Under the pieces are notes generated by a model that was not told the DNA's origin, ran no database searches, and saw only the letters and a list, made by a program, of their open reading frames with translations. Of a stretch of DNA of 27,223 nucleotides, positions 2-26,098 are shown in pieces. This stretch comes from an uncultured virus (IMG/VR IMGVR_UViG_3300036715_000919) (taxonomy: Duplodnaviria; Heunggongvirae; Uroviricota; Caudoviricetes). Location: IMG/VR virus record IMGVR_UViG_3300036715_000919; one strand, given 5' to 3'. The translations under genes and the position numbers were made by a program. The stretch's first letter is position 1; every line of letters starts with the position of its first letter.

Positions 2-619
2 TGGAATAGTAGAACGTACCACTTTACTGGCTATACTTCCAGCCTTCAATCCTTCTCCTGCTGCTTCAGCTAATGTCTTGAAGACAGTACCGAACGCCTT
101 CTCCTCAGCAGCAAATGGTATCATCCATTCGGCAGTAGACTTAATCACCGTATCAAACCACCAGGCTGGATCTTTCCAGTCCCAGTTATCATCAGGGTGC
201 TCATGGTATACAGGAAGCGGATCACGAAAAGACTGTAGTTTCTTAGTCAGTGCATTGGTGTAATCACTGTCATCATTGCCAGTAACACCTGCCCATACTT
301 TAGGATCAAGTCCAGTGGCAAACACTTCACCAATACCAAGCACAGAGTTGGTTGCAGCATTGACAATGGAGTCTCCGGCTTGTGCGTACCACTTCTGGTT
401 CTGTGCACGCAACATATAGTTGTCCGCATTCGTTTTGGGCTGAAATGAGAAGTCGCCAAAGTCTTCTCCTGTTACATTCCCAACAGCAGGCGAATTGCCA
501 GCAGTAGGAGTGTTGGATATTTTATTAAGATCAAAACCTCCTGAAGTAGAAGGTTTTGAAGATTTAGATGCCGGTGGTTTGCCGGGATCAGCTATTTTGT
601 CAAGGTCAAATCCAGGCAT
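2..619 (-). CDS. N-terminal 206 codons of a large virion cargo/ejection protein (possibly the giant virion RNA polymerase-containing protein); truncated at window edge
   Basis: Not in the ORF track. ATG at 619 overlaps the upstream TAA (TAATG) and the frame stays open to the window edge: MPGFDLDKIADPGKPPASKSSKPSTSGGFDLNKIS...LRAQNQKWYAQAG...PLPVYHEHPDDNWDWKDPAWWF.... The RAxNQxW and LPxY..WW pattern and the position after the cargo genes resemble N-termini of crAss-like giant cargo proteins. No RNAP motif is visible in the window. Confidence 0.75.
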   Translation of the reverse strand, partial: MPGFDLDKIADPGKPPASKSSKPSTSGGFDLNKISNTPTAGNSPAVGNVTGEDFGDFSFQPKTNADNYMLRAQNQKWYAQAGDSIVNAATNSVLGIGEVFATGLDPKVWAGVTGNDDSDYTNALTKKLQSFRDPLPVYHEHPDDNWDWKDPAWWFDTVIKSTAEWMIPFAAEEKAFGTVFKTLAEAAGEGLKAGSIASKVVRSTIP

Positions 620-2781
620 TACTTATGGTTTTGAAATGTTTCTATAATACTGTTTGCAAGCTCATCTACAGAGGATGCAGCCACTTCTTTTGAGGTGCCA
701 TTTTTTCCTGGGTAAGTGATTGTATACTCAGCTCCATCGTGTGCATTGAAAGTTGATTTATCTGATGGTGTGATACGTCTGATCTTTACAGACAGGTTAT
801 CCCCTACAGGTAAATCAAGTACTCCTCCTGGTGCATTGTTCACAGCAGAGATAGACTGTGTAAGGAATTGACGTGCAGGAGTGATTTGCCCCTCTTTGAT
901 CAGATTCTGTGCAGCGCCACTGTATGCCGGCATCTTCACCAGTACATCTTCACCAACTGTATTACCTTTAGCATCAGTCTTACCTGTTCCTACTTTGAAG
1001 AACATCTTGTACTGGCCATCCGTATCAATACCAATACCAGCGAACTTGGAAGCACCGGCAATTTTCTTATAATCGTCTGCTGCAAGTGGCGCACCAGACT
1101 TGTCGCCACTGGCCCAGGTCAATCCCTGTGCCCCGTACTTCAATCCTTTACTATCCAGATTCACAGATAAGTTATTGAAGTTATCATTGATAGCTGTGTT
1201 CAGCTTGGTATTCTTGAACGTAGTCAGTCCAATGACAGCTGAAGTGTTCTTGGTATTATCATTCAGCAATTGTTTGTAACGGGCATAGCCTGGGGTATCC
1301 TGTACAACAGCATCATAAGCACTCTGACCTCTCTTGGCAGCATCTTCACGGCTAAGGAGATTCTTAGGATCATTGATTGCATCCTGATAGTATTCCTGGT
1401 AAGCCTTGTCAGCTTTCTCTTTCAATGAAGGATCAATCTTATAACCGGCTTGCTTCTGCAATCTCTCTTTCAGATCACTCAGTTCCTGAGAAGACTTGGA
1501 AGCCTGCTTTTGGGTATCTATGAACTTCTGAGCCATAGAAGTAACTTCCTTGCCACTGGCATCGAACCACTTGGTTCCAGGATCATAGATGTTGCCATTT
1601 GGTTTAGCTTTAGTCGTATTCTGCCAGTCAAGCAGAGCAGTGTATGCATCTTTGTTGGCCTTATCATGAATAGCAATTCCAGATTCAATTGAAGCCGGGT
1701 TGCTGTATTGAGAACCATTGAGAGGTTGGATAATAGTTGACTGGATTGGTATAGACTGATTGTCCATATCCTTCAGTGTAAATGGATTGGCCTGGATACC
1801 TTGTCCTGTCTCCACATCGTGCTGAGTGTACTTATCACGGCCATAAGCATGTGCATTACTAAGCAACTGACTCACAATCTTATCTCCCTTGATACTCTTT
1901 ATAGCAGTAGTGAGGTCCTCTCCCTGAGCGAGTCTACTGTGCAGCGCCTCAGATAGGGTGACAGGTACACTATCTTTACCCTGATCTCCGGCTTTCATTC
2001 CTACTACTTCATCAGGATTGAGTCTACTATAATTAATATTGTATGTTCCCAGATCACGCTGCTGATGTAACCATGACTGAGCCTCAGGGTCATTGGATAG
2101 TCCTTCATTGATGATAGCCTGTACACGATCTGCAGGCATTGTAGTAGTTTTGCGGCTGGCACTGTCTATCCATTGCCCATTGAGGTATTCTACCTGACGT
2201 CCATTGACAACAGGCTTAGCATGTTCCAACCAGGTATCTACTTTCTTGGATAGGTCAATATCTTTGGTATAGTCTCTTCCCTGGAATCTTCCAGTATACT
2301 TACCAGTCTGTGGATCAATCTGTACACCTCTGTACTGATGAATATCCCGTTGCAGTATCTGATCCGCTGATGCTGGAGTGAGGTAGCCGGCATCAGTTGG
2401 GTTTTTCTCAGTAGCTTTCTTCAATTCTTCTTTACGGTCTACGAGATCCTTTGCAGACTGTGCAAATGGAGCATACTCCTGTGGCAACTGTTGAGCAAGC
2501 ATGGTAGACTCTCTCACAGCATTCTCCAGGTCGGGCCGCTTGGCCAGTGTAGAGAGTTTCGTAGAGAACTTATCTCTCAATCCCTGCAATGCCTGCTGAT
2601 CCTGTTGAAATGGGGTAGTCAGATTGCTCAGATACTGATTTGCATAATCCTGCCTGTCTTGAGCAGTATCATATTGCTTCTGTAGTTGAGCACTTACTGC
2701 CACCATCTCTGGCACAGCAGATCCCTGGTACTCTGGTACTCGGTTGCTGTTAGCTAATCTATATCCGTCGTAAAGTCCCAT
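619..2781 (-). CDS. Virion cargo/ejection protein (720 aa)
   Basis: Long intact ORF with a helical, Gln/Lys/Asp-rich N-half. It lies between the cargo-1-like genes and the giant protein, as in crAss-like gene order. Function inferred from synteny only. Confidence 0.6.
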   Translation of the reverse strand: MGLYDGYRLANSNRVPEYQGSAVPEMVAVSAQLQKQYDTAQDRQDYANQYLSNLTTPFQQDQQALQGLRDKFSTKLSTLAKRPDLENAVRESTMLAQQLPQEYAPFAQSAKDLVDRKEELKKATEKNPTDAGYLTPASADQILQRDIHQYRGVQIDPQTGKYTGRFQGRDYTKDIDLSKKVDTWLEHAKPVVNGRQVEYLNGQWIDSASRKTTTMPADRVQAIINEGLSNDPEAQSWLHQQRDLGTYNINYSRLNPDEVVGMKAGDQGKDSVPVTLSEALHSRLAQGEDLTTAIKSIKGDKIVSQLLSNAHAYGRDKYTQHDVETGQGIQANPFTLKDMDNQSIPIQSTIIQPLNGSQYSNPASIESGIAIHDKANKDAYTALLDWQNTTKAKPNGNIYDPGTKWFDASGKEVTSMAQKFIDTQKQASKSSQELSDLKERLQKQAGYKIDPSLKEKADKAYQEYYQDAINDPKNLLSREDAAKRGQSAYDAVVQDTPGYARYKQLLNDNTKNTSAVIGLTTFKNTKLNTAINDNFNNLSVNLDSKGLKYGAQGLTWASGDKSGAPLAADDYKKIAGASKFAGIGIDTDGQYKMFFKVGTGKTDAKGNTVGEDVLVKMPAYSGAAQNLIKEGQITPARQFLTQSISAVNNAPGGVLDLPVGDNLSVKIRRITPSDKSTFNAHDGAEYTITYPGKNGTSKEVAASSVDELANSIIETFQNHK

Positions 2782-2784
2782 TGT

Positions 2785-3903
2785 TTAGCATTTAACTTTT
2801 CTTCTTCCTATGTTTCCACCATAAGCTGCCACTGGTGGAAGTGTCTTTGGCATTTCCACGCTATGGTGAGAGAATTTATCACGGTAGATATTACTGTTCG
2901 GATTGTTGTTACGCATGTAGCTGGCCATGTTGATGATCCACTGGTCGGATGTAGGATTGAGGTTTTCACCTTTCTCTGTCTGAATTCCAGCGTATCCTAT
3001 AGGACGACGTAAACGTACAGGAGGAATAGGAGGATGTCCCGGATCAGGCTCAGTAATCAACCCACCTGCTGCAAACTGACCATACATTGCCTTGTATCTC
3101 TCGGGATCATTGTCTTTGAGATAAGCAGCATACCCACTATCAGCGCCATAGGCTCTGTCAGATACACCACTATTTTTCCACATTGGTTTGTAAGCTTCCC
3201 ACTTATCACGGTCGAGCTGCTGTGCATCCCTGAACTGCTGTTGGCCAACATACTTGTCGGCTGCATTGGAGAGATTAGCACTCTGTTCTCGTTGATCGAC
3301 TACCTGTGCTTCAGTGAGATTGTTCTTCCACTGATTCATTACTCCCATGTTCTGCATTTCAATGCCAGCATTCAATTGACGGTTCTGATTATCAATTCCC
3401 ACGTTGGTATTGTTCACGGATTCATACACGCTATTCTTAGCTCGGATACCTTGAGCCATATTGCTTCCCTTTACTGCAGCAGCTGTATTCTCATCCAGAT
3501 TTCTGTCAGCAGCTCCGTTCATTCCACGTACAGATCTGTCAGCTTCCACTAACTGTCCATCAGCAGATACATGAGATGCAGATACTGCACCTACCATACC
3601 GGGTGCCTGAGGCAAAGGAGGATGACGGAATGAGTTAGCCAAATTGGATACATACGGCACGATGTCCCCGAACTTAGAGAATACATTACTCCTGCGCATT
3701 GTACCCGGAGAATCAAATCCCGCAGTACGGCCTGGAGCATTGAACGCACTCACCTGTTTCCCAACAGCAGGAGTCTTATCGTAGGATAACATTTGTGGAT
3801 CAGCCATGGATACTCTTTTGGAGGAGTGGTTGGCTCCCCAATTGTAAGCTGGATCGTATGGATCTTCGGGATCTCCTCCATTTTTGAATACTTTACGTCT
3901 CAT
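2785..3903 (-). CDS. Virion cargo protein, resembling the C-terminal half of crAss-like cargo protein 1
   Basis: Carries FKNGG, FAAGG and AAYGG motifs, an Asn/Gln-rich helical segment (NSVYESVNNTNVGIDNQNRQLN) and PYVSNLANSF...PPLP, recalled as typical of this family. Synteny after the muzzle. Confidence 0.6.
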   Translation of the reverse strand: MRRKVFKNGGDPEDPYDPAYNWGANHSSKRVSMADPQMLSYDKTPAVGKQVSAFNAPGRTAGFDSPGTMRRSNVFSKFGDIVPYVSNLANSFRHPPLPQAPGMVGAVSASHVSADGQLVEADRSVRGMNGAADRNLDENTAAAVKGSNMAQGIRAKNSVYESVNNTNVGIDNQNRQLNAGIEMQNMGVMNQWKNNLTEAQVVDQREQSANLSNAADKYVGQQQFRDAQQLDRDKWEAYKPMWKNSGVSDRAYGADSGYAAYLKDNDPERYKAMYGQFAAGGLITEPDPGHPPIPPVRLRRPIGYAGIQTEKGENLNPTSDQWIINMASYMRNNNPNSNIYRDKFSHHSVEMPKTLPPVAAYGGNIGRRKVKC

Positions 3904-3909
3904 AGTATA

Positions 3910-4671
3910 TTAATTTAAACCCAGCATGTGCTTGGTGTACTCCTGGGATAGTTTCAATTGATTCTCTTTCTCCTTCAGCAGTTTCAGACTGTTTACTCTT
4001 TCAGGACTCAATGGCTTGTGTTCAATCTTACCAATAGCTTTTGCTATCGGCTTATGTAGTGCAGCAAATCCGAGACGGTCGGAGAATACATAACTTCCGT
4101 TAGTAGTCTCATTGCCCTCCACTTCAGCGCCCATGCCTGGTATCTGTATTCCTCCTTGCTCATGCGGTGGTCCATTGAATTCTGCTGCCTGTGAATTGAG
4201 TGGAGTGGCAGTACCTCCTTCAGTTTGTTGATTGGATACATTGAGTGGTCCGCCTGCTGCATAGTAACCGTTCATTAGGGTAGCAGTGTTACCACGTACC
4301 AATGTAGGATCAGTGGCAATGCGTGCTGACGCCTGCTGTTGATTGAGAAGAGTATTACGTCTCTGTTCTTCATTTTTCAATCTGGAAGCCTGTTCTGCCT
4401 GAGACTTATTAGATAGAAAGCCTGCAATCAATCCTGCTCCAGCGCCAATGCCAGCACCGAGTGGGCCGAAGTTAGCTCCCATGGCCGCACCCTTACCTAC
4501 ACTACTCACGAGATTGGCTCCCATGGTACGTTTGCCGTATTGATCAGCAGGTCCCAGTGAGTCAGTTAAACTACCAACCAGTGAACCGGCCTGGCCAATT
4601 CCTGTTGCCATTTCAGCATCAGTGAATCCACCGACTGCGTATTTCTTATATCGTTTGCTCAGTGTAGCCAT
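3910..4671 (-). CDS. Virion cargo protein with glycine-zipper hydrophobic segment, resembling the N-terminal half of crAss-like cargo protein 1
   Basis: Glycine zipper GAAMGANFGPLGAGIGAGAGLIAGFL; motif GPPHEQGGI...AEVEGNET...YVFSDRL characteristic of crAss-like cargo 1; YAVGG and YYAAGG motifs. Confidence 0.7.
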   Translation of the reverse strand: MATLSKRYKKYAVGGFTDAEMATGIGQAGSLVGSLTDSLGPADQYGKRTMGANLVSSVGKGAAMGANFGPLGAGIGAGAGLIAGFLSNKSQAEQASRLKNEEQRRNTLLNQQQASARIATDPTLVRGNTATLMNGYYAAGGPLNVSNQQTEGGTATPLNSQAAEFNGPPHEQGGIQIPGMGAEVEGNETTNGSYVFSDRLGFAALHKPIAKAIGKIEHKPLSPERVNSLKLLKEKENQLKLSQEYTKHMLGLN

Positions 4672-4672
4672 T

Positions 4673-5428
4673 TTACCTATAAGATTTATCTGCGTTGATG
4701 TCTGCTCCGTGCAGTACGAATTGTTTTCCGGATGAATTATCGAACTCTAACCGTATGATAAAGAAGCTATCATGAATAAGATCCTGGTCGAACCAAGGCT
4801 TATCCAAATCTATAGCCACATCATCTACAGCGAAGTTATGGAATATGTCAAGCAGAAACTGGGTTCCATATACAGCAAGCATGTCTTTGAAGGAACTGAA
4901 GCTCCATATAGATTGTGTCTTTCTGGTGATATACTCCAGGTTATCGAATACCTGATCCAGTGGAATGCGTCCAGTACACTGTTGATTGTTCCAGATGGTA
5001 ATATGTGTCAGTGTAGCAAATTCCAGTTCCTGTCTGTCATTGAAGACTTCACTCATCCACTGCACACTGTCAAGGATCATCTCACTGTCAGCAGTGAATA
5101 CTGCGTCAATAAAGAAGGGTTTGATAGCTACATCATGAAAGACACCAGGATTACCAGTATGATGTTTATATATAGATCTGTTTTTCAGATTATACAATTG
5201 AGTTTTTGTTGAGAAGTAGAAGTCCGGCAGGTAGTCATGAAAGAATACCCAGCCTCCACCGTCCAGTGAGAAGGAAAGTGTATAGGATTTATCAATTTGG
5301 GCATCCAGTTCTGCATCCTGAAATGCATAGCAGATACCATCTACCTTCTCGAGGTAAATGCAACTCCCATCGTCTACATCAGCAGACGGATTATAATTCT
5401 TGGCTTTGGGGTTAGTACATCCGTTCAT
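4673..5428 (-). CDS. C-terminal part of the tail muzzle/stabilisation protein, encoded separately, with an N-terminal GCTxP..NYNP.A..DDGSC motif
   Basis: SYTLSFS...WVFFHDYLPDFYF...IRLEFDN matches the segment that normally follows 'YDPKYKRLLLT' in crAss-like muzzle proteins. The start codon overlaps the upstream stop (TAATG at 5426-5430). Confidence 0.75.
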   Translation of the reverse strand: MNGCTNPKAKNYNPSADVDDGSCIYLEKVDGICYAFQDAELDAQIDKSYTLSFSLDGGGWVFFHDYLPDFYFSTKTQLYNLKNRSIYKHHTGNPGVFHDVAIKPFFIDAVFTADSEMILDSVQWMSEVFNDRQELEFATLTHITIWNNQQCTGRIPLDQVFDNLEYITRKTQSIWSFSSFKDMLAVYGTQFLLDIFHNFAVDDVAIDLDKPWFDQDLIHDSFFIIRLEFDNSSGKQFVLHGADINADKSYR

Positions 5429-8400
5429 TAGCTACAAGTTCCTTTAGTGTTAGCGTAAGTTTGTTTATTGGCAGCCACATCTGCTACGGCCAGCGCATCT
5501 GCTGCAGCTTGGGAGACGATGGACATGTATGTTCCCTGTGGAACTGTGTATGTAACTACAGAGCCTACACCAGTGGTGCAATCATTCTTCTGTACAGTCC
5601 CTGAGGCTGCTGCACTGAGATAGGTTACCACTGTAGCGCCACAGTCGATGTGATTGGCAATGTCCGGGTAATAGGGTACATTCATATCCTGGAAAGTGAG
5701 TATAGGAGTAAGCTGATTGTTCACTATGTTGATAATAGTTGAATGTCTCAGATCATTGATTTGCACCTTATCCCAGTGACGGGTATTGGTAGCTCCTGTA
5801 GGAACAACAGTCTCAATCTTCTTACAGCTAGGGGAACCTGTCAGGTCCAGTACATACCCGCTTGGACAAGTGGCTACTACATTGGGCTGATTGATCATGC
5901 TGGTAGTGGTATAAAGAATAGTCACTCCGGCATCAGTAGTTGCTGCCTGAATTGTAGCAGGCGTATTGTCATAGATGATCATTCCGATGGAATCATTGAC
6001 ACTGCCGTCTCCGGTACCTACCGCGTTAAAGATGTTGGCGCCATTGATAATGTCTACAGGAAAGATGTGGAATACCTTGAAGCTTTCGTGTGTACCCAGT
6101 CCATCTGTAATAGCAATACGTACACCATTCACTTTCAGCTCAAACTCATTGTCTCCGAAGATACCCACGTACACAGTACGGGCAGAGCCGGTGTTGTTAT
6201 AGTAAGCTGAGATGGTAGTCTGTGCCCCTGCAGTTAGTGCGTCCGGTGTTCCATTACAATCACTATCTACCCACACACCGCAGGCATTGGGCCTTCCTTT
6301 CCAGTAAGTAGTACTCATCTCTGCATACACGTCACTGGTGGGGGCTGTGAATAGTTCAATGGAACTGTTATTCCAGCCTGGCTTGTATATACGGGCAAAG
6401 TAACTTCCATAGGCGCTGTTAGTGCTGGCCGCCAAACAACCTCCGCTACTGATAATAGTGGCAGCTGTAGTAGTAGTCTTTACACAAGCAGATCCATCAG
6501 AGGATAGTGTATACCCTGATGGACAGGATGGAGTACCGCTGAGACAACTTGGGACTGCTGGTGAAAATCCAATTGAGCCCCTCGTGTACTCCACATTGAT
6601 GGTCACAGTGAAGAGTACTGGTGGTAAACCTGAGCCAGATACACTCATGTGTAATAGATACTGTGGGGTAACTATAGGATTAAGTGAACTATTGTTTACA
6701 AGGGTAATTACCAGTGTAGTTAGATCTACTGTGAACACTCCTGGTACACTTTCAGAGATGAGTGTGTAGGTCAGTGACAAGTCTTCTCTCACCAGAGCCG
6801 GTCCCAGTGTTACTACAGGAGTTAGTGATGGAGTAGTATCTGGAATGGTGATAGTAGTATCTGGCATTACAATTACCCCATCAGCAGGTGTGATATGTAC
6901 AATACAGGTGCCGTGTACCAGAGTCGTACCATCAGTGACTGTAATATCCAGCACATAAGTTGGAATGGTATTGCCATCCAGTTGTGTATGATCGGCAATG
7001 GTGATAGCCCCTGTTGCAGGGTTGATAGTGAAAGTTCCACCTGTGTTGCCTCCGGCGATGCCAAAAGTAAGTGTATCTCCCTCACGATCCGTAGCCACCA
7101 TCAATGCTACACTGTCACCATCAAGATTAGTCTCAGAGATAGTTACCTCATTGTTCAGTATCACTGGTGGACGGTTAACTGAAGTCAGGTGAACTATCAG
7201 GGTGAACCCGTCAAAGTCTCCTGCTGTGCCAAACCCCTTACCTGCGAAGGTGTACAGAGATTGAGTATAGTAATCCAGGCTTCCCACTACTGTAACCTTA
7301 CCAGTGGATGGGTCAATGGCAAAGGGAGACGAGGAGCCTGTGATATAGTAGTTTACAATGTTAGAACCTGCCAGTGTTCCTATGAGGGTACCAACGGCAG
7401 TGTTTTCAGAGATAGTCAGTTCCAAGTCGGGAACCCCCGGTACCGGCGCAGCATCACAGTTATAGACTGTACTATTGACACCAAGAAACCGTACTAGCTT
7501 GCCGTCCTTTAATAGCAGATCGCCTATAGAGTAAGTCAGGATGTTAGCCGGATCGTAGTTGTTTACTATAAGGCCCGCATTGGCTCTCACATCTTTAGCT
7601 GTCAGCAGGAGTCTCTTGTACTTAGGATCATACCCAATAGTGTAGCCATTACCAATAAAAGGATTATTCTCTTTCATTCGCAGGTATTCTTTGAAGAATA
7701 CGTTCATCTCTTTATTGATCAACTCCAGCTGTCCCTTGTAGATGAAGATGTTTCCTTCTTTGGAGTCAAGAAAGATATAACCATTTGGGGTACGTACACA
7801 GGCCAGGTCATGCTGTGTCCCTGCATACCCTCTGGGAGCTGAGTTTGCTTCCTGTGGTTCAAACTGGAAGATGTCTCCACTTCCAAGTGTGATGGATATG
7901 ATGTCAGCTTCCAGTTTGGTTTTATCCTGTGTACGGAAGAGGGCATTCTCACAATGGATGAGTAATCGGTCATCCATACCTTCCAGGTGAACAGGTTTGC
8001 CCATATTCTTCTGCATCTCGTAGTAATCCAGTGGCAGGCAGCTTCTCCAATTACGGACTTTAGTTTGCCGGCTCAGTTTACCCATTCGATGTATCCTGTA
8101 TGGGTGGAGGTATAAGTCCTCGGCGAACGTATTAAATATATCTGTTGCAAACAGATCATCCAGTGCATTGCTGTCCTTCTTATAGCCGAACTGGTTAGGA
8201 TCTATATCCCGCATGAAGTTAGTAAGGTAATTGTCCTTATCATTAGGTGTAAGTGAACTTTTCGGATAGTACCTGCTGTATGGATTGGCAGGGTCTTCAT
8301 AGCGGGCATAAAGATTAGCCACACATTCACAGATGAAGCGTCTTACTACTTTGGTTCCCTGGAACATACCATTGTAAGGAGATACCTGGTTCTCATTATC

Positions 8401-10620
8401 GAACCACCCGTATGTGTGGAAGGAGTAATCACAGATGTAAATGTCTCCTCCGTAGAAGATCTCGGTATTGTTCACAGTGTTTGAGCTTCCCCCTCTTACC
8501 AGTGACTGGGCAGTGAAGGGTACAAAGAGTTGTGATTTGATCGACATCATGTTTGACAGGAAACAGGTCTCAGACTTAGGTTGAGCCTCGGGCCCTGTAT
8601 ACGGATGACGGGAACCTGGTTGAACAGTAAGCTCATATACATCTCCGGAGCTAATGAGTGCTTCAGGATGTGTAAATCTGCCACCAAAGAAACGTTCAAT
8701 TCCTTTGTTATGCCACTTCAGGTATTCAATATTGTTTGGCACCCAGGAAGTATCAGCTACTGCTTTGATGCGTTTAGCGGGAAGTACTGGTGAGATCCCC
8801 TTTTGCAGGTAGTCCAGTACAAATACCATTGGGCCATCGTTGGAATCTGTTACCAACTGATCTTCCACAGTACCTCCCGTATAAGGAAAGTTCACACGGG
8901 AATGCTTTAGCTGTAGATCAATATAGTCAGGTGTTACACTGGGATTGTTGAATAGCATGTCAAAGCTATGGAAATGAAATATGGATTGGTCCATATATAG
9001 GTGGTAATCAGGTCCACTTTTCCAATCAATATAGCTGTTCCAATTACCTCCGGTTGAATAGTAATTACTTGGGGATAGTGCAGTTTCAGCCTGGTTACGT
9101 GCACCATTGAGCATGAGACTCTGTCCCACGATAGTAGAATTGGCCACATTACGTTTGGCATAAAACAGTTCCCAGCCAACTATCTGGTCTGCATATTCAG
9201 CAGGTATAGTTACATTCTCCAGACTGATGCCTAACATATCTAAACTGTTACGGCCGTAATCGGGCTCACCCATAAACAGATTCTGCTTACACCATGCAAT
9301 AGAAGGGAAACGGTGGTGTCTAACAGGAGTGCCCCTCAGATCCTCTCCACCTACAGCAGATGAATTGAAGTCATCTGTGTTGGGGTAATTCTCAGAAGCA
9401 TTCTCCCATTTACCGAAGTAGCCACTTTTAGATGCATAGTCAAATGAAGGTATCCTATCTTCTACCTGGAACTTCTTAGCTGTAAGTCCTTCTGCTGTAG
9501 CTAAGGGGGAGGTGAGCCGGTCTGTGGAATCCAGTGGTTCTCCGGGTATCACAAAAGATTGTGTTACGGTGCCATCTGTCTTCTTGAAACGTATGTACCA
9601 TGCGTATACTTCTCCATGCATGTGACTCTTCTCTTTACCCTCTGACATAGGAGTATAGACAGGATTTACGGTGATCAGTTTAGAATGCCACTTTAGTCGG
9701 ATCAGATTAACCCACTTTTGCATCCGAATCTGCTGTGGACTCTCAAGGTCAGCAATGTACAGGGCATCATTAAGTTGTCCCATGGTACCCACTTTGTTGT
9801 ATACCTTGCGTGGAGTAAGTATTTCTTCCAAGGTTACTGGTTCAGTCACTTCAGTACCTGTGTAGGCAATGGTGATTGAGCCGGATGCGAGGATAGGATT
9901 AAGAAACTGTACTGCTGATAATATGCCATTGATCTTGGTTACAATGGCTATCTGTACGTAATCATAATCCGGATCTATGTTAGTAAGCGTGATTTCAAGA
10001 CTTTTGTCTGTAGCCTGTCCAGTAGTGCCACTCACAACAGCAGGTGCACTTACAGCGATGTAACTGGTCTCCGTTCCATCTTTCTTAGTGTACTTTAGTG
10101 CAGCGTAATAAGCGCCGGGTAACAGGATACCTCCAGCCTGTACTTCAATAGTGAGATCTGCTGGTAATGCATTGGGGAATAGTTTTAGGTCATTGAGGGT
10201 GTTGGCCATAGGTGTATCCATATTAACATAGAAAGGAGTGGCATTCTTATCTGTGAATGCTACTACCAGTTCTCCCTTGTAGTTCCGCTGGGCCTGTCCG
10301 GTGATATAGAAATCGGTATCAAAAGGAAGTTTGAATGGGAGGGACGCGTCATCGTATTTGGGGATGTAAATGTCATTGTCCACGTCAAAGTATCCGATAG
10401 CACTGTGAACATTGTTACTGCTGAAAATAACAGGGTACTTATCTGTTTCAATGATACCGATTTGAGTGTAAGGTAGTATTGCAGCAGACTTGGCAAAGCC
10501 CATCTCATTGAGAGTAGCTCCTTCAATGTAGTTCTGTACTCCGTTCTTACCAAACGGGTACGTCCCCTTGGGTTGTTCCTGGGGACGGGTGTTTCTGCTA
10601 AGTTTATTAAATTTCTGCAT
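5428..10620 (-). CDS. Tail muzzle/stabilisation protein (N-terminal ~1010 aa) fused to cadherin-like, Cys-rich, jelly-roll-like and DUF5977-like domains
   Basis: crAss-like muzzle motifs: GEVYAWYIRF, WENASENYP, PVRHHRFP, FYAKR, YGGDIYI, LGSGDIF, YAGTQH, GYDPKYKRLLLT. C-terminal ~700 aa show cadherin signatures (ISENTAVGT, VNRPP, ATDREGD, FTINPATG, LDYYT) and end in QKNDC...VTYTVPQGTYMSIVSQAAADALA...QTYAN..GTC. Confidence 0.85.
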   Translation of the reverse strand: MQKFNKLSRNTRPQEQPKGTYPFGKNGVQNYIEGATLNEMGFAKSAAILPYTQIGIIETDKYPVIFSSNNVHSAIGYFDVDNDIYIPKYDDASLPFKLPFDTDFYITGQAQRNYKGELVVAFTDKNATPFYVNMDTPMANTLNDLKLFPNALPADLTIEVQAGGILLPGAYYAALKYTKKDGTETSYIAVSAPAVVSGTTGQATDKSLEITLTNIDPDYDYVQIAIVTKINGILSAVQFLNPILASGSITIAYTGTEVTEPVTLEEILTPRKVYNKVGTMGQLNDALYIADLESPQQIRMQKWVNLIRLKWHSKLITVNPVYTPMSEGKEKSHMHGEVYAWYIRFKKTDGTVTQSFVIPGEPLDSTDRLTSPLATAEGLTAKKFQVEDRIPSFDYASKSGYFGKWENASENYPNTDDFNSSAVGGEDLRGTPVRHHRFPSIAWCKQNLFMGEPDYGRNSLDMLGISLENVTIPAEYADQIVGWELFYAKRNVANSTIVGQSLMLNGARNQAETALSPSNYYSTGGNWNSYIDWKSGPDYHLYMDQSIFHFHSFDMLFNNPSVTPDYIDLQLKHSRVNFPYTGGTVEDQLVTDSNDGPMVFVLDYLQKGISPVLPAKRIKAVADTSWVPNNIEYLKWHNKGIERFFGGRFTHPEALISSGDVYELTVQPGSRHPYTGPEAQPKSETCFLSNMMSIKSQLFVPFTAQSLVRGGSSNTVNNTEIFYGGDIYICDYSFHTYGWFDNENQVSPYNGMFQGTKVVRRFICECVANLYARYEDPANPYSRYYPKSSLTPNDKDNYLTNFMRDIDPNQFGYKKDSNALDDLFATDIFNTFAEDLYLHPYRIHRMGKLSRQTKVRNWRSCLPLDYYEMQKNMGKPVHLEGMDDRLLIHCENALFRTQDKTKLEADIISITLGSGDIFQFEPQEANSAPRGYAGTQHDLACVRTPNGYIFLDSKEGNIFIYKGQLELINKEMNVFFKEYLRMKENNPFIGNGYTIGYDPKYKRLLLTAKDVRANAGLIVNNYDPANILTYSIGDLLLKDGKLVRFLGVNSTVYNCDAAPVPGVPDLELTISENTAVGTLIGTLAGSNIVNYYITGSSSPFAIDPSTGKVTVVGSLDYYTQSLYTFAGKGFGTAGDFDGFTLIVHLTSVNRPPVILNNEVTISETNLDGDSVALMVATDREGDTLTFGIAGGNTGGTFTINPATGAITIADHTQLDGNTIPTYVLDITVTDGTTLVHGTCIVHITPADGVIVMPDTTITIPDTTPSLTPVVTLGPALVREDLSLTYTLISESVPGVFTVDLTTLVITLVNNSSLNPIVTPQYLLHMSVSGSGLPPVLFTVTINVEYTRGSIGFSPAVPSCLSGTPSCPSGYTLSSDGSACVKTTTTAATIISSGGCLAASTNSAYGSYFARIYKPGWNNSSIELFTAPTSDVYAEMSTTYWKGRPNACGVWVDSDCNGTPDALTAGAQTTISAYYNNTGSARTVYVGIFGDNEFELKVNGVRIAITDGLGTHESFKVFHIFPVDIINGANIFNAVGTGDGSVNDSIGMIIYDNTPATIQAATTDAGVTILYTTTSMINQPNVVATCPSGYVLDLTGSPSCKKIETVVPTGATNTRHWDKVQINDLRHSTIINIVNNQLTPILTFQDMNVPYYPDIANHIDCGATVVTYLSAAASGTVQKNDCTTGVGSVVTYTVPQGTYMSIVSQAAADALAVADVAANKQTYANTKGTCS

Positions 10621-11489
10621 TAGCTGAGTGGTTGATTGGTTCCTGCAATGTACGGCTGCTGTGTATTGCTGTTGGCACTGCTTAATCCTGTATTAGGGCC
10701 AAAGCCGCGGGTATCAAATGTACCTTCTGGTCCTGGTGTAGAGAAGAAGTTGTCGTAGTACCCCTGGTGAGGGATGAACCGTACAAAGGTATTGATGCGT
10801 TTATCCATTTGCTCAGGAGAAGGCATACGAATCTCAGCTATTGCTCTTGGTCCGTAGAGCATCTCGAACTGCTGTATGCAGTAATCAAATTTGAAGATGG
10901 TATCCTTCCAGCCGGCACCGATCATCATCCCCCTACAATACCAGTAGAGTGCAGATTTGTAGTTTTGGTTATCGGGTATCATCGGAAAGCCATCTTCGTC
11001 AGTTTTGATGCCACGGTAGTACAGGATCACTTTTCCATCTGAAAATGAAGTATTGATGTGTCCCATGTCCGTGTAGTAATAGGCGCCTGCTGTGCATGAT
11101 TGAAGGGCATTGACGTCCTGTAGTTTACTTACATACAGGGTGTGTCCATCAAAGGTCTGCTTGTCTACTACTGAATTGAACGCTGAGTAATTGTCCAGAT
11201 AAGTCACTGCCCTGTCTCTTTCAGCAGGCCGGGCGCCACCGCCCTCTCTTAGTCTATGTCCATCATACTCAACTCCATCCAGGTACTTCATGCCGCAGGG
11301 AAGTTTAGCCTTGTGGAAGTTGATTTGTACCGGCTCCCATTTTCCTTCTAAAGAGAACTGAGTCTGCAGTTGTTCCATGGCTTCATACAACCACTCATGA
11401 ATGTCGGCTATGAAGGAACTGTCCTGGATACGCGTATTACGTACTACGTTTCCAATGACGTCCCGAAGGCTGGTGTACTGGTATTGCAT
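10620..11489 (-). CDS. Tail ring/adaptor (tail tubular, ring-1-like) protein
   Basis: Motifs EWLYEAM, FHKAKLPC, GHINTSF, YRGIKTDEDGFPMIPDN, ALYWY match the conserved crAss-like tubular protein immediately upstream of the muzzle. TAATG coupling to the muzzle. Confidence 0.8.
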   Translation of the reverse strand: MQYQYTSLRDVIGNVVRNTRIQDSSFIADIHEWLYEAMEQLQTQFSLEGKWEPVQINFHKAKLPCGMKYLDGVEYDGHRLREGGGARPAERDRAVTYLDNYSAFNSVVDKQTFDGHTLYVSKLQDVNALQSCTAGAYYYTDMGHINTSFSDGKVILYYRGIKTDEDGFPMIPDNQNYKSALYWYCRGMMIGAGWKDTIFKFDYCIQQFEMLYGPRAIAEIRMPSPEQMDKRINTFVRFIPHQGYYDNFFSTPGPEGTFDTRGFGPNTGLSSANSNTQQPYIAGTNQPLS

Positions 11490-12082
11490 GGTATCGGATG
11501 TTTGTTTATTCGCTTTATAATAGGGTAGTACTTGTATTTGAATTTAAGTAGCGGGTCATCAGTGAGTGCCTTGGAGAACTCAGCCTTGAATCCCTTCCTG
11601 GTGGCCATATTCTTCTCAGCAGGTTTGAAGTGATAATTGGTCTCGTTGGGTATCATTCCAAACTTAGCCCATTCAATTCTGCAGTAGTCGTCCTCTGTAT
11701 GGAAGACTTTGATCAACTTACCGTCTGGTCCTTTCTCTCCGTTGAACGTCTCATGCCAGTTGACCAGTGGTTTGGTGAAATCCCGTTGTATCCTGGCTCC
11801 TCTGATCTTTCCCAAGTTAGCCCCCAGTCTTAGTGTTTCTCCATGGATGATAGCGTATTTGGCTTTATGGAAGTAAACTTCAATCACATCTTTCCAGATA
11901 AACCAGCTCATTTTCAATACTACTTTGCCATTCTCTTTGGCGTAGATGTAGCAATCTTTACGCTTCACGCGTTTCTCGTATTTCCCCCACCAGGTAGGGT
12001 GCGCATCAAGTAACTTTTTTACATACGCCGCATAGACGTCTTTGATGGAATACTGCTTCGGTCTTACAATTGGTTTTGCCAT
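11444..12082 (-). CDS. crAss-like IHF/HU-like DNA-binding protein of the tail module
   Basis: Basic protein with IIHGETLRLGANLGKIR...VNWHET...VFHTEDDYCRIEW...YHFKP, the divergent IHF-like family found between ring genes. Overlaps the next gene by 46 nt and is the only called gene ending in TAG. Confidence 0.7.
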   Translation of the reverse strand: MAKPIVRPKQYSIKDVYAAYVKKLLDAHPTWWGKYEKRVKRKDCYIYAKENGKVVLKMSWFIWKDVIEVYFHKAKYAIIHGETLRLGANLGKIRGARIQRDFTKPLVNWHETFNGEKGPDGKLIKVFHTEDDYCRIEWAKFGMIPNETNYHFKPAEKNMATRKGFKAEFSKALTDDPLLKFKYKYYPIIKRINKHPIPCNTSTPAFGTSLET

Positions 12083-12094
12083 ATCGGTCTCAAG

Positions 12095-12736
12095 TTATTT
12101 CTCAACTGGTACTTCATCAGTGGGCTTGGAATCAGGTCGATTGTAATCAATCTGTAGTATAGACTGAACAATCAGCTGCATGATGTCACCACTGCATGGA
12201 AACTCAATATCCCAAACATCACAGTTGTATGCCTGAGGTAAACATGAACAGCTCATCTGCTGGATAAGAAGGGGATCATCAAAGATGCCATCAGTTCTCA
12301 CCACAGGGATACCGGTCTTATCAATATAGAGTTTGTTATTGCTGTATTCAAAGGCCGGGAACCACGAAGCGAACTTACCTGTCATCAGATAGTTGGCTGT
12401 GCCAGGGCCTACTTCACGAAATGGACTCTTGCCGTCCACACCTCCAACGTAATCAAATAAGGTAGTCCCCACTCTGATCAACAGGGGTATCTTTTCAACT
12501 GAGATGGATTGCATCTCCCCAATGCCTGCTGCATAATTTGAAGCAGAAGCAGTAGTCATCTTAACGTAGAGAGTTTGCCGAAAGAATTTACGCTGACCAG
12601 GCTCTTTTCCAATGGAGTTGGCGACATGCCTGCTTCTCCAGTACTTTATCCGTTCCATCAATTGAAGTCTGAAGGGAACATCCAGCTCTCTGTCAAGATT
12701 GGAAGCTATCAATGTGGTTATTTCATTCGGAGTCAT
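12095..12736 (-). CDS. Tail ring protein (ring-2-like)
   Basis: MTPNEI..., FDYVGGVDG, NNKLYI, GIFDDP, C-D..D.EFP motifs and synteny. ATG at 12736 (preceded by ACT) preferred over the TTG start at 12760. Confidence 0.7.
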   Translation of the reverse strand: MTPNEITTLIASNLDRELDVPFRLQLMERIKYWRSRHVANSIGKEPGQRKFFRQTLYVKMTTASASNYAAGIGEMQSISVEKIPLLIRVGTTLFDYVGGVDGKSPFREVGPGTANYLMTGKFASWFPAFEYSNNKLYIDKTGIPVVRTDGIFDDPLLIQQMSCSCLPQAYNCDVWDIEFPCSGDIMQLIVQSILQIDYNRPDSKPTDEVPVEK

Positions 12737-12771
12737 AGTGTACAGGATGTTTAAGAACAATTACAAGTTAC

Positions 12772-15981: not shown

Positions 15982-17532
15982 TTACTGACCAGCTAAGCAT
16001 TGGAAGTCGAAGCAACGGTTAGCTCTTAGGATCTGAATACCTGCAGACTTAAAGCGTGTGTATGCGCTCTTATCCTGGTCAGTGCTCAGCAGAGTTGCCT
16101 TGCTTTCGTTATCAATGTTAAAGCTTCCAGTCATTACCTGAAGACTCTTAGGCATGTTAGTCATACCGGCGATCACACCATGCTGGAATGAACGTCCTTT
16201 CTGAGCAACGTGTTGGATGTTTGGTTGACCATCGTAATCGTTGTCATCAATGAACACCATACGGTAAGATTCTAATGGCCACCCTGTTTCCGGATGAGTG
16301 TAACCAGCTGCCTGCTGTGCAAGAGCTACTTTACCCATGTCGAAGGTTGGGTTGTGTTTCACTTTCACAGTGTATCCATCAATATGATAGAACTGATCGA
16401 AGTATCCACCCAAAGCCAGATGTGATCCAGTACCAGAGATGAACTTATCGGCAATGTTGCCGGCGCCAGATCCAAGGTTAGCCAGGATAGTTCCACCTGC
16501 TTTCTTGATAGCACGATCGAATGCCCTCATACCACCACGACCTGTATGCAATGTGATAGAGATACCTGCTGTGTCAGACTGACCAAACAATGCGTCACCG
16601 ATTTGGCTCACCATGTAGTCGTAGTTCAAATCAGAGTAAGTACTCTTGTTCTGAATTTGCTCCAGGATACCTGATCCGGTTGGGATGTCTTTACCAGTAA
16701 GCAAATCTTTCAGCGCCACGGTACCGTTGGCAGCCCTGTTGTAACGAGAATACCAGTAGTTGTGTTCGCAGATAGATAGCCATTCCATTTCATACTGCCA
16801 CATAGCCCAATCCATCCAAACATCAGTTTCACCCTTGTCTGTCTTAACTGAGATCTTCATTACCTTGTTAGCAGAATTACCAGCCCAGCTGAAACCATGA
16901 CGCATGAAACCCATTTGGTTCTTGAATGAACCAGGCATGGCCATTTTAGATTCAGTTGTACGGGATTCACTCTCTGCAACAGCGGTAGTAATGTCAATCC
17001 ATGCATTACCACCATCCAGCTCTGTCAAAGGACAAAAGTCAGTTGGCAAGGCAGCATTCAATGATACAGTGTACTCATATTCACCAGTACCTGTAATAAC
17101 AGGATCAGAATGAACATAAGCCTGAATACCGCGGGCTGACTGGATGATGAAGAAACGTTTAATCCAGTTGTCCGTAAGGCGCAACTTGAACTGGTTGTTT
17201 CCGATACCAGGCTTATCACCAGTGGTGTACGCATTCGAGCTTACAATTGAAGCTTTATGAATACGGCCCATCACAGGATAAGTGAACTGGACATCATCCA
17301 ATTCCACAGCAGCTCTCTGCATAGCATTGCCTTCATAGCCAATACCACCGAGGGTCATCAATGAAATAGGATAATTCTTTGTATAGTCACCCATGATATA
17401 GGTGAGTTTACGGGTAAGCTCCGATGGAGCGCCCTGACGCTGGTGGTAGAAGTTGGTTTCATCCAGCATTGATTTGGAATCAAAGATTCCTTCGGTGACC
17501 CTGTATTTCAGGGCTGGGGTAGGTTGTGCCAT
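15982..17532 (-). CDS. Major capsid protein (crAss-like, HK97 fold)
   Basis: 516 aa; IPTGSGILEQI, LHTGRGG, GGYF..F.HIDG..V.V.HNP.FD, HPETGWPLESYRMVF motifs of crAss-like MCPs. Follows portal and scaffold; followed by a terminator. Confidence 0.92.
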   Translation of the reverse strand: MAQPTPALKYRVTEGIFDSKSMLDETNFYHQRQGAPSELTRKLTYIMGDYTKNYPISLMTLGGIGYEGNAMQRAAVELDDVQFTYPVMGRIHKASIVSSNAYTTGDKPGIGNNQFKLRLTDNWIKRFFIIQSARGIQAYVHSDPVITGTGEYEYTVSLNAALPTDFCPLTELDGGNAWIDITTAVAESESRTTESKMAMPGSFKNQMGFMRHGFSWAGNSANKVMKISVKTDKGETDVWMDWAMWQYEMEWLSICEHNYWYSRYNRAANGTVALKDLLTGKDIPTGSGILEQIQNKSTYSDLNYDYMVSQIGDALFGQSDTAGISITLHTGRGGMRAFDRAIKKAGGTILANLGSGAGNIADKFISGTGSHLALGGYFDQFYHIDGYTVKVKHNPTFDMGKVALAQQAAGYTHPETGWPLESYRMVFIDDNDYDGQPNIQHVAQKGRSFQHGVIAGMTNMPKSLQVMTGSFNIDNESKATLLSTDQDKSAYTRFKSAGIQILRANRCFDFQCLAGQ

Positions 17533-25774: not shown

Positions 25775-26098
25775 TTATCGAGTGACGGCTTTCACTGCAT
25801 ACATCTGAGCAGTCTCCAGGTTAGTCTTGGCAATGGAGGCAAGCCGCATCATGTCTGAATGTTGTAAATCTCTTGAAGTAAAAGTTCTTTCAATGTTTTC
25901 CTTAACCTCAGGGTCAGTAGTAGAAGTCATATCAATATGCCTCTGTCGTACCCACTTATCAATTTCATCAAATGCATCAGCGAAGATCTGTTTGATTGCA
26001 GCCACGTCCTCACGCTGACCGGGATTGAAGGATACGGACATTATATGTTGTCCTCTGGTGAGAGTCTTCGAAGACTCCTGTGTAGATTGTGAATCCAT
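25775..26098 (-). CDS. Acb2/Tad1-like helical-hairpin protein, putative cyclic-nucleotide sponge (anti-CBASS/anti-Thoeris)
   Basis: FNP....V..IK...A...D.I N-helix and RLASIAKTNLETAQMYAVKAVT C-helix, resembling recalled Acb2 ([22 protein letters not shown]) and Tad1-like C-terminal helices. Confidence 0.7.
   Translation of the reverse strand: MDSQSTQESSKTLTRGQHIMSVSFNPGQREDVAAIKQIFADAFDEIDKWVRQRHIDMTSTTDPEVKENIERTFTSRDLQHSDMMRLASIAKTNLETAQMYAVKAVTR

What the first reader, a model, noticed from the sequence alone, without database searches (positions are those of the whole stretch)
4673..10620. Tail muzzle gene split in two at a variable loop, with a large adhesin module appended at the break
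Seen: the 1730-aa ORF has crAss-like muzzle motifs only up to GYDPKYKRLLLTAKD (~aa 996-1010). The segment that normally follows (SYTLSFS..WVFFHDYLP..) instead appears ~45 aa into the next 251-aa ORF, coupled by a TAATG overlap with no slippery heptamer nearby. Known: in crAss001 the muzzle is a single hexameric protein capping the tail and gating cargo/DNA ejection. Inference: the muzzle here assembles from two chains, and the break creates a free C-terminus on which ~700 aa of adhesion domains are displayed at the tail tip. That would couple receptor binding directly to the ejection gate, an architecture I do not recall being described.
Basis: partly seen in the sequence, partly recalled or inferred. 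Interest (0 to 1): 0.78.

Follow-up and report, generated by a model that had tools for sequence, protein, structure and literature searches.

The report
Two-gene crAss-like muzzle with adhesin arm
In this uncultured crAss-like phage the protein that caps the tail is encoded as two adjacent genes, cut at a tight turn, and the free end made by the cut carries a long, swappable, adhesin-like arm that may help the phage grip its host.

Summary
ORF 5428-10620 (1730 aa) and ORF 4673-5428 (251 aa) overlap in TAATG. They are collinear halves of one muzzle protein. A single-chain relative (L016, 1243 aa) matches residues 1-1013 of the first ORF and 36-251 of the second back to back. The folded second ORF matches the crAss001 muzzle best (Z 11.7).

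The cut lies in a turn of about 8 residues, near gp44 residue 1195, ahead of the ring-joining C-terminal domain.

The split is inherited. 25 of 37 IMG/VR relatives share it. 121 stand-alone homologues exist at 41-87% identity. Both genes are under purifying selection. Four independent assemblies give the same junction.

The 720-aa appendix holds three cadherin repeats, a weakly PA14-like beta domain between EGF-like motifs, and DUF5977. Among relatives this cassette ranges from 40 to 776 aa and is mosaic.

Physical two-chain assembly, receptor binding and coupling to the gate remain inferred, because the complex predictor was unavailable. The arm probably leaves the propeller near the barrel, not the distal tip.

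A split nozzle in Pseudomonas phage A1002 (2026) is the nearest published precedent. This scan noted split crAss muzzles before on other DNA (27 notes).

The parts
5428..10620 (-). Gene 1: muzzle N-chain, 1730 aa (core plus appended arm)
   Evidence: ORF list and translation. Pfam crAss_MUZ E 1.8e-13. PHROG 15100 E 7e-32.
7591..10620 (-). Muzzle N-core, aa 1-1010. By homology to gp44 it holds the ring-joining N part, propeller blades, IG1, IG2 and the crass domain.
   Evidence: 44.6% identity to fused L016 over aa 1-1013. hhalign aligns aa 3-463 with crAss001 gp44 9-472, probability 86%.
7456..7590 (-). Linker after the break, aa 1011-1055, with the hairpin GDLLLKDGKLVRFLG
   Evidence: The motif is found in 16 of 25 split tails by a strict pattern, including the 40-aa tail of L011. 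G1047 is invariant and C1055 nearly invariant in alignment A2. It is absent from the junction of the fused relatives L016, L019 and L028 that I printed.
6586..7455 (-). Three cadherin-like (EC) repeats, aa 1056-1345
   Evidence: Pfam Cadherin E 8.9e-15. AF2 tail model has mean pLDDT 81.9. Tail residues 51-333 align with cadherin-23 EC13-15 (7u71): Z 16.9, 270 aligned, rmsd 7.2.
5821..6585 (-). All-beta central domain between two CPxGYxLxxxGxxC EGF-like motifs, aa 1346-1600. Candidate binding head.
   Evidence: cEGF matches 6 of 8 aligned homologues, best E 5.1e-6. PA14 matches only 2 of 8, best E 0.019. Predicted all-beta. The domain is shared with L004, L009 and L010, which lack the cadherins.
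5623..5820 (-). Unassigned beta-rich spacer, aa 1601-1666
   Evidence: Predicted strands at tail residues 588-624. No family hit.
5431..5622 (-). DUF5977 domain, aa 1667-1730, exactly at the C-terminus of chain 1
   Evidence: Pfam PF19404 E 1.2e-21, profile positions 1-65 of 65. It is terminal or within 3 aa of the end in all 5 tails that carry it.
5426..5430 (-). TAATG stop/start overlap
   Evidence: Logan contigs of 4 runs carry 4900-5950 with 0 differences and 0 gaps.
4673..5428 (-). Gene 2: muzzle C-chain, 251 aa
   Evidence: 121 stand-alone homologues at 41-87% identity.
5318..5428 (-). Cys-motif mini-domain, aa 1-37 (GCTNPxAxNYNPxAxxDDGSC plus a hairpin)
   Evidence: Present at the start of 26 of 26 split C-chains and in 0 of 12 fused proteins. 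pLDDT about 86. The same 25-aa unit repeats up to 53 times in giant proteins.
4676..5290 (-). Muzzle C-core, aa 47-251: last propeller strands plus the ring-joining C-terminal beta-sandwich
   Evidence: 46.8% identity to L016 1022-1243. hhalign aligns aa 72-181 with gp44 1224-1332, probability 85.7%. Foldseek top hit 7qok_A, E 4.5e-8. VIA Z 11.7 against 7qol_P, next unrelated chain 6.4.
10620..11489 (-). Context: Ring protein 1 gene directly upstream, as gp43 precedes gp44 in crAss001
   Evidence: Pfam CrAss_Ring_1 E 4.7e-38. crAss001 gene order.

Best explanation
This is the tail muzzle of an uncultured crAss-like phage. The muzzle is the homologue of crAss001 gp44 and of podovirus nozzle proteins. 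Here it is encoded as two translationally coupled genes.

Shown:
- The two ORFs are the collinear halves of a protein that is one chain in close relatives.
- The cut lies in a turn of about 8 residues between two predicted beta-strands, near gp44 residue 1195.
- The split is inherited and both genes are under purifying selection.
- Between the halves sits a cassette with constant ends and a variable, mosaic middle. The constant ends are a linker hairpin after the N-core and a Cys mini-domain that starts chain 2.
- In this window the middle holds three cadherin repeats, an EGF-flanked beta domain and DUF5977.

Inferred:
- Chain 2 supplies the last propeller strands and most of the ring-joining domain. 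The muzzle is therefore probably a 6+6 assembly closed by strand complementation.
- Six arms probably project from the propeller rim near the barrel.
- A free C-terminus lets modules of any size or fold be appended or swapped, which a closed loop would not allow.
- The arms act as built-in adhesins for host surface glycans or proteins.
For: Collinearity:
- P0001 1-1013 and P0002 36-251 abut on the fused relative L016 (E 0 and E 4e-70). They do the same on L019, L028 and 9 further fused loci.
- They also lie on one chain in Fpv1 gp30.

Structure of chain 2:
- AF2 model of P0002 has pLDDT 67.9, lowest at aa 44-70, next to the break.
- Its best PDB matches are the crAss001 muzzle chains 7qok_A and 7qol_P (E 4.5e-8; Z 11.7 against 6.4 for the next).
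- hhalign to gp44 1224-1332. gp44 carries Pfam crAss_MUZ_C at 1244-1333.

Inheritance:
- 25 of 37 IMG/VR loci are split and 12 are fused.
- 121 stand-alone homologues.
- dN/dS for N-core, tail and C-chain is 0.154, 0.238 and 0.089 (L015 vs L018) and 0.058, 0.191 and 0.048 (L014 vs L017).
- Identical junction in contigs of 4 runs at depth 13-30.

No recoding:
- Junction offsets of -4, -1, +1, +2, +3, +5, +12 and +18 nt use all three frames. There is no slippery heptamer.
- Some relatives have 69-300 nt gaps or a whole extra ORF between the halves.

Cassette:
- Tails run from 40 to 776 aa.
- The Cys motif starts 26 of 26 split C-chains and occurs in 0 of 12 fused proteins.
- Sub-modules are shared in a mosaic pattern.
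- Cadherin fold Z 16.9.
- DUF5977 is listed as a stalk domain of fibrillar adhesins (PMC8286594, passage read).

Precedent: the A1002 nozzle is rebuilt from two chains by strand complementation (PMC13730344, section 9 read).
Against: - No direct evidence that the two chains bind each other.
- No evidence that the arm binds anything. The candidate binding head has only weak PA14 similarity (2 of 8 members, best E 0.019). It has no PDB sequence match, and its fold was not tested alone because cadherins filled the list.
- Pfam does not see crAss_MUZ_C in P0002 itself. Only 1 of 31 family members reaches E 0.024. The profile of the C-chain family finds no gp44 in the PDB by sequence.
- The position of the break in 3D comes from linear alignment, not from coordinates.
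- Three fused relatives nest inside the split clade (all-split monophyly 0 of 100 bootstraps). The history is therefore not a single clean split.
Confidence: 0.75

Rival explanations
1. The split is real, but the arm is not a receptor binder. It is a scaffold or dock for separate fibre proteins, or a brace along the tail. The A1002 nozzle-rope protein works this way: its extension carries 11 fibre dimers.
For: The A1002 precedent (PMC13730344). Cadherin and DUF5977 are stalk-type rather than adhesive domains. In L029 a separate 1313-aa protein of 15 DUF5977 repeats lies between the two halves. No confident binding domain was identified.
Against: Cassette content and length change faster than the core: dN is 1.1-2.2 times that of the N-core in the saturated pairs, and dN/dS is 0.19-0.24. 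The cassette is also mosaic. Both features are typical of host-range determinants. Tails as short as 40 aa exist, so no fixed docking surface is conserved.
Confidence: 0.17
2. The two ORFs are joined during expression, by frameshift, readthrough or RNA splicing, into one chain with the cassette as an internal loop.
For: The ORFs overlap by one base and are always adjacent or near each other.
Against: No slippery heptamer. Junction offsets among relatives fall in all three frames. Some relatives have gaps of 69-300 nt or extra ORFs between the halves. No Rfam intron or other RNA family at E up to 0.1 in 4000-11500. Chain 1 ends with a complete DUF5977 domain.
Confidence: 0.03
3. Assembly error or recent pseudogene: a stop or indel broke a single muzzle gene.
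For: The record is an incomplete metagenomic virus contig, 41% complete.
Against: The same layout occurs in 25 of 37 relatives down to 41% identity. Both parts are under purifying selection. Four assemblies give an identical junction, although they may include the source sample. Chain 2 has a conserved start and a conserved N-terminal motif.
Confidence: 0.02
4. Protein trans-splicing by a split intein rejoins the halves.
For: crAss-like phages carry many inteins and introns (PMC7886860, passages read). Chain 2 starts with a Cys-containing motif.
Against: No intein or Hint family hit in either ORF. The Cys motif is a common tandem repeat of giant surface proteins, not an intein. No Cys, Ser or Thr follows the N-core at the break: the sequence there is ...TAKD-VRANAG.
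Confidence: 0.01

Closest known systems
Muzzle protein gp44 of Bacteroides phage crAss001 (PDB 7QOK, 7QOL; Pfam PF25731 and PF25729; Bayfield et al. 2023, PMC10172136)
   Same: Same gene position after Ring 1. N-core aligns with gp44 9-472 and C-chain with gp44 1224-1332. Best structural match of the C-chain.
   Different: gp44 is one chain of 1371 aa with no appendage at this site. Here there are two chains and a 720-aa arm. Sequence identity is low (18-21% in the hhalign alignments).
Split nozzle of Pseudomonas podophage A1002: gp42 nozzle-base plus gp39 nozzle-rope (PMC13730344, 2026)
   Same: A nozzle-family protein divided into an N-chain (platform-N, propeller-N) and a C-chain (propeller-C, platform-C), with a long extension at the break. 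By linear domain order the break is at a comparable place (my inference).
   Different: An unrelated phage lineage. In A1002 the extension is on the N-terminus of the C-chain and docks fibre dimers. Here it is on the C-terminus of the N-chain and is made of adhesin-type domains. In A1002 the assembly is solved; here it is not.
Single-chain muzzle homologues of environmental crAss-like phages: Flavobacterium phage Fpv1 gp30 (NC_031914) and fused IMG/VR relatives L016, L019 and L028
   Same: Up to 45-47% identical in both halves. Fpv1 gp30 carries about 195 aa at the same hairpin without a stop.
   Different: One ORF. They lack the Cys mini-domain (0 of 12 fused IMG/VR proteins), and L016, L019 and L028 show no linker hairpin at the junction.
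Bacterial fibrillar adhesins (cadherin and DUF5977 stalks; Monzon et al. 2021, PMC8286594)
   Same: The arm uses the same stalk domain families. Tandem cadherin repeats are 27-34% identical to giant bacterial cadherin proteins.
   Different: The arm is attached to a phage tail protein, not to a cell wall or a T9SS anchor. The adhesive head is unproven.

Membership tests
crAss muzzle (Pfam crAss_MUZ PF25731) | Profile match above the gathering score | tested here: met
   50 bits against a cut-off of 27, E 1.8e-13. Only profile positions 139-320 of 1224 are matched. Relatives L004 and Fpv1 gp30 score 98 and 119 bits.
crAss muzzle (Pfam crAss_MUZ_C PF25729) | C-terminal domain profile match in the short ORF | tested here: inconclusive
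   No hit in P0002. 1 of 31 family members reaches E 0.024. hhalign nevertheless aligns P0002 72-181 with gp44 1224-1332, probability 85.7%. Fpv1 gp30, which aligns with P0002, hits MUZ_C at E 5.9e-14.
crAss muzzle | Fold similarity to solved gp44 | tested here: met
   For the C-chain only: Foldseek E 4.5e-8 and VIA Z 11.7 (rmsd 3.6, 140 aligned) against 6.4 for the next chain. The N-core was not folded.
crAss muzzle | Gene directly downstream of Ring protein 1 in the structural block | tested here: met
   Ring 1 at 10620-11489, Ring 2 at 12095-12760, and MCP, portal and TerL upstream. crAss001 has gp43 then gp44.
crAss muzzle | Single polypeptide forming a hexamer that gates the tail | tested here: not met
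   Single polypeptide: not met, because there are two ORFs. Hexamer formation and gating cannot be tested with these tools.
Split nozzle (A1002 type) | Two chains that rebuild the propeller and platform by strand complementation | not testable with these tools
   Sequence collinearity with fused relatives is met.
Fibrillar-adhesin-like module | Tandem stalk domains | tested here: met
   Three cadherin-like repeats and DUF5977.
Fibrillar-adhesin-like module | A recognisable adhesive (binding) domain | tested here: inconclusive
   PA14 matches 2 of 8 homologues of the central domain, best E 0.019. The Atlas gave a lead at score 0.80 only. The fold was not searched alone.
Programmed -1 frameshift site | Slippery heptamer before the stop, conserved frame relation | tested here: not met
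   No heptamer in the 150 nt upstream. Relatives use all three frame offsets.
Split intein | Intein/Hint motifs at the two new ends | tested here: not met
   No such Pfam family in either ORF at E up to 0.1.

The most novel reading that the evidence does not exclude
The break is a dedicated, reversible cassette port in an essential tail-gate protein. Two constant adaptor elements flank the port: the linker hairpin on chain 1 and the Cys mini-domain on chain 2. These adaptors both clasp the two chains together and serve as recombination anchors. Whole adhesin arms can then be swapped, shed (giving re-fusion, at least twice) or released as separate genes. The six arms are the phage's primary receptor binders, and their engagement is passed through the propeller to the gate loop.
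Probability: 0.25. Interest if true: 0.8.

Novelty: new variant of a known kind. Interest (0 to 1): 0.6.

Why it matters
The muzzle is the most conserved tail-tip protein of crAss-like phages and is thought to gate DNA and cargo ejection. A natural, inherited two-chain version shows where this fold tolerates being cut. It also points to a site where host-binding modules are exchanged in a large group of environmental phages of Bacteroidota that have no cultured member. That gives a concrete handle for predicting host range and for engineering display on the tail. Together with the A1002 split nozzle, it suggests that splitting the nozzle near the propeller/platform junction is a recurrent route to adding fibres.

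Tried and rejected
- Complex prediction on N-core pieces plus the C-chain was not available, so co-folding was not tested.
- The tree programs could not be loaded. I used my own neighbour-joining trees with 100 bootstraps instead. No maximum-likelihood tree was made.
- phmmer of P0001, P0002 and Fpv1 gp30, and the profile of the C-chain family, found no gp44 in the PDB by sequence.
- A profile of the central tail domain found nothing in the PDB: best E 0.71, and only on the EGF-like motif.
- The Atlas look-up of the central domain gave scores of 0.80-0.82, which is a lead only.
- PHROGs gave no hit for 11 of 12 cassette tails.
- NCBIfam gave nothing for P0001 or P0002.
- Rfam gave no match in 4000-11500.
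- No RNA holder was listed among the sequencing runs, so there is no expression evidence either way.
- P0216, P0165 and similar long proteins looked like unsplit intermediates. They turned out to be unrelated Cys-motif repeat proteins.
- Earlier notes of this scan held no look-alike of P0002 and nothing on this genome.
- The structural search of the whole 720-aa tail model was filled by cadherins. Residues beyond 336 remain untested.
Full report
**What the window is.** It is the structural block of a crAss-like phage, all on the minus strand. The gene order is TerL (21244-23343), portal (18772-21207), major capsid protein (15982-17532; Pfam Crass_capsid E 2e-52), Ring 2 (12095-12760) and Ring 1 (10620-11489; E 4.7e-38), followed by the two ORFs of the finding. 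The order Ring 1 then muzzle matches gp43 then gp44 of crAss001. The window is part of a 36,741-base IMG/VR virus record rated 41% complete.

**Observation.** ORF 5428-10620 encodes 1730 aa (P0001). ORF 4673-5428 encodes 251 aa (P0002). They overlap in TAATG. No XXXYYYZ heptamer lies in the 150 nt before the stop.

**Identity of the two ORFs.**
- P0001 hits Pfam crAss_MUZ (50 bits, cut-off 27) and PHROG 15100 at profile positions 13-480 of 1783. P0002 hits the same PHROG at positions 1531-1680.
- Fpv1 gp30 of a cultured Flavobacterium phage (1783 aa, one ORF, annotated virion structural protein) covers both ORFs.
- The decisive comparison is with fused relatives from IMG/VR. In L016 (1243 aa), P0001 1-1013 aligns with residues 4-1029 (44.6% identity, E 0). 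P0002 36-251 aligns with residues 1022-1243 (46.8%, E 4e-70). L019, L028 and nine more fused loci show the same pattern.
- In L016, L019 and L028 only 7-8 residues separate ...KRIxxTIKN from SFTLSYS.... The cut therefore falls in a tight turn between two strands.

**Structure of the C-chain.**
- An AF2 model of P0002 (31-sequence alignment) has mean pLDDT 67.9. It is lowest at residues 44-70, which border the break.
- Its best PDB matches are the crAss001 muzzle chains: Foldseek 7qok_A at E 4.5e-8, and VIA-align 7qol_P at Z 11.7 (rmsd 3.6, 140 aligned). The next unrelated chain scores Z 6.4.
- Podovirus nozzle proteins (Pam1, Pan3, P22 gp10) appear at Z 5.5-5.9, which is not distinctive.
- hhalign places P0002 72-181 on gp44 1224-1332 (probability 85.7%). 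It places the N-parts 3-463 on gp44 9-472 (probability 86%).
- gp44 carries Pfam crAss_MUZ up to residue 1235 and crAss_MUZ_C at 1244-1333. The break therefore corresponds to about gp44 residue 1195.
- According to Bayfield et al. (PMC10172136, passages read), gp44 consists of a ring-joining domain, a seven-bladed propeller, IG1 (163-292), IG2 (318-1021) and the crass domain. The gate loop is in blade 4.
- By linear order, which is my inference and not a coordinate measurement, chain 2 holds the last propeller strands and the C-terminal part of the ring-joining domain. The arm would then leave the propeller rim near the barrel rather than the distal tip.

**Is the split real and inherited?**
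- A length-restricted search found 121 stand-alone homologues of 138-440 aa at 41-87% identity, many on contigs of 80-100 kb.
- A profile scan of IMG/VR returned 37 loci. By my ORF parsing 25 are split and 12 are fused. Some loci are near-duplicates: L011 and L012; L025, L026 and L027; L014, L017 and L023; L036 and L037; L031 and L039.
- Among the best 150 representatives of a 1.84-billion-protein library, 98 are unrelated proteins that share only the Cys motif. 28 are fused muzzle forms or fragments of them. About 16 are split-type. 8 are unclear fragments.
- dN/dS in close pairs shows purifying selection on all three segments. L015 vs L018 gives N-core 0.154, tail 0.238 and C-chain 0.089. 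L014 vs L017 gives 0.058, 0.191 and 0.048.
- Logan contigs from four runs (sediment and microbial-mat metagenomes, depth 13-30) carry 4900-5950 without any difference. These runs may include the source sample and contigs hide rare variants, so this is weak but consistent support.
- Junction geometry among 21 adjacent pairs uses all three frames: offset -4 four times, -1 six times, +1 four times, +2 three times, and +3, +5, +12 and +18 once each. One further pair (L020, offset -35) was left out because its start call is doubtful.
- Other relatives have gaps of 69-300 nt or an extra ORF between the halves. That excludes a conserved recoding signal.
- Rfam finds nothing and no intein family is present.

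**The cassette.**
- In split forms the N-core is followed by a tail of 40 aa (L011, L012) to 776 aa (L006).
- Every one of 26 split C-chains begins with the motif GC-x-NP-x-A-x-NYNP-x-A-xxx-D-x-SC. None of 12 fused proteins contains it.
- A short hairpin (GDxVxxxGRxxxFxG) follows the break in 16 of 25 tails by a strict pattern, including the 40-aa tail. Alignment A2 shows G1047 invariant.
- The split type is therefore N-core, linker hairpin, variable modules, stop, start, Cys mini-domain, C-core.
- The window's 720-aa tail folds with mean pLDDT 81.9. Residues 51-333 match three cadherin EC repeats (7u71: Z 16.9, 270 aligned, rmsd 7.2, 22% identity).
- After the cadherins comes an all-beta domain between two EGF-like Cys motifs. 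cEGF matches 6 of 8 homologues. PA14 matches only 2 of 8, best E 0.019. A beta-rich spacer and a terminal DUF5977 (E 1.2e-21) follow.
- The tail is mosaic. L003, L006, L008 and L020 share all of it. L005 and L021 share only the cadherins. L004, L009 and L010 share only the central domain.
- Pfam finds cadherin in 8 of 20 tails and DUF5977 in 5. It finds nothing in 10.
- Other arrangements exist. P0141 has two PKD domains ahead of the Cys motif on the C-chain. L029 has a separate 1313-aa ORF of 15 DUF5977 repeats between the halves. L005 has an extra 183-aa ORF.
- Single-chain Fpv1 gp30 carries about 195 aa at the same hairpin. The site therefore accepts insertions with or without a stop.

**History.** Neighbour-joining trees put the split forms in a crown group: N-core with 993 columns, 33 distinct sequences and 100 bootstraps, and C-core without support values. 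That group also contains the fused L016 and L019 (grouped with L007 and L011 in 91 of 100 bootstraps) and the fused L028 (grouped with L004, L009 and L010 in 100 of 100). Monophyly of all split forms got 0 of 100. All split forms share the same adaptor elements. One origin followed by at least two re-fusions is therefore more economical than many independent origins. This rests on distance trees only.

**Mechanism.**
- Shown: collinear halves, a conserved split, selection on both genes, and a variable cassette with constant ends.
- Inferred: the overlapping stop and start couple translation. The last N-core strand and the first C-core strand pair as they do in fused relatives. The muzzle is a 6+6 assembly with six arms. 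The free C-terminus removes the geometric constraint of a loop insertion and allows module exchange. The arms bind host surface structures.
- The hosts are probably Bacteroidota. MAG labels of related contigs are Flavihumibacter, Sphingobacterium and 'Bacteroidetes bacterium'. These labels are binning hints, not proof.

**Comparison with the literature.**
- The five papers that contain 'muzzle protein' were listed. I read passages of four of them, and none describes a split muzzle there. The fifth, PMC10136315, I saw only in the listings.
- The searches 'stabilization protein' + crAss + split (6 papers; passages of PMC7886860 read) and Crassvirales + receptor-binding + muzzle (1 paper) added nothing.
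- Supplements were not consulted.
- The A1002 paper (PMC13730344; abstract, passages and section 9 read) describes a nozzle rebuilt from two chains, with a fibre-docking extension at the break. It is the closest known system, in an unrelated phage and with the extension on the other chain.

**Earlier notes of this scan.** 27 notes in at least 23 other genomes already describe split crAss-type muzzles with swappable modules. I saw them after forming my reading. They agree with it but concern other DNA.

**Verdict.** The two-chain reading is well supported by comparative evidence. The receptor-binding role, the coupling to the gate and the 'tail tip' position are unproven.

Noticed in passing
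window 5318-5428 (P0002 aa 1-37); proteins P0140, P0144, P0152, P0260: The Cys motif of about 25 aa (GCTxPxAxNYNPxAxxDDGSC) is a tandem repeat present up to 53 times in giant proteins of 1000-4400 aa. Several carry T9SS sorting domains. Neither Pfam nor NCBIfam has a model for it.
   Followed up: partly
L002:5596-7083 (Synechococcus phage S-CAM4 gp233, 495 aa): A T4-like cyanomyovirus structural protein next to tail-fibre genes matches P0002 aa 3-233 (26.6% identity, E 9e-6). The Cys motif plus muzzle C-core module therefore also occurs outside crAss-like phages. P0134 (467 aa, crAss_MUZ_C) is similar.
   Followed up: no
L029:4058-7999: In one relative a separate 1313-aa ORF lies between the two muzzle halves. 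It has 15 DUF5977 repeats, an SprB repeat and an unknown C-terminal part.
   Followed up: partly
L032:4583-7976: In this otherwise fused relative the N-part itself is interrupted near aa 366-382, with a gap of about 215 nt and a frame change. This may be a second kind of split, an intron or an error.
   Followed up: no
window 25775-26098 (minus strand, 107 aa): A small ORF with an Acb2/Tad1 hairpin domain (Pfam PF24729, E 1.6e-10). It is a candidate anti-CBASS/Thoeris nucleotide sponge.
   Followed up: no
L044 (contig JACPEA010000007.1, 233,651 bases, range 172849-189580): A full copy of the same split muzzle with the same arm (47.9% identity over P0001 1-1730) lies inside a 233-kb contig of a Bacteroidetes MAG. 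It could be an integrated or co-assembled crAss-like phage.
   Followed up: no
window 619-4671 (minus strand): The three complete ORFs after the muzzle C-chain (253, 372 and 720 aa) have no Pfam family, and only one has a weak PHROG hit of unknown function. By position they correspond to the cargo genes that follow gp44 in crAss001.
   Followed up: no
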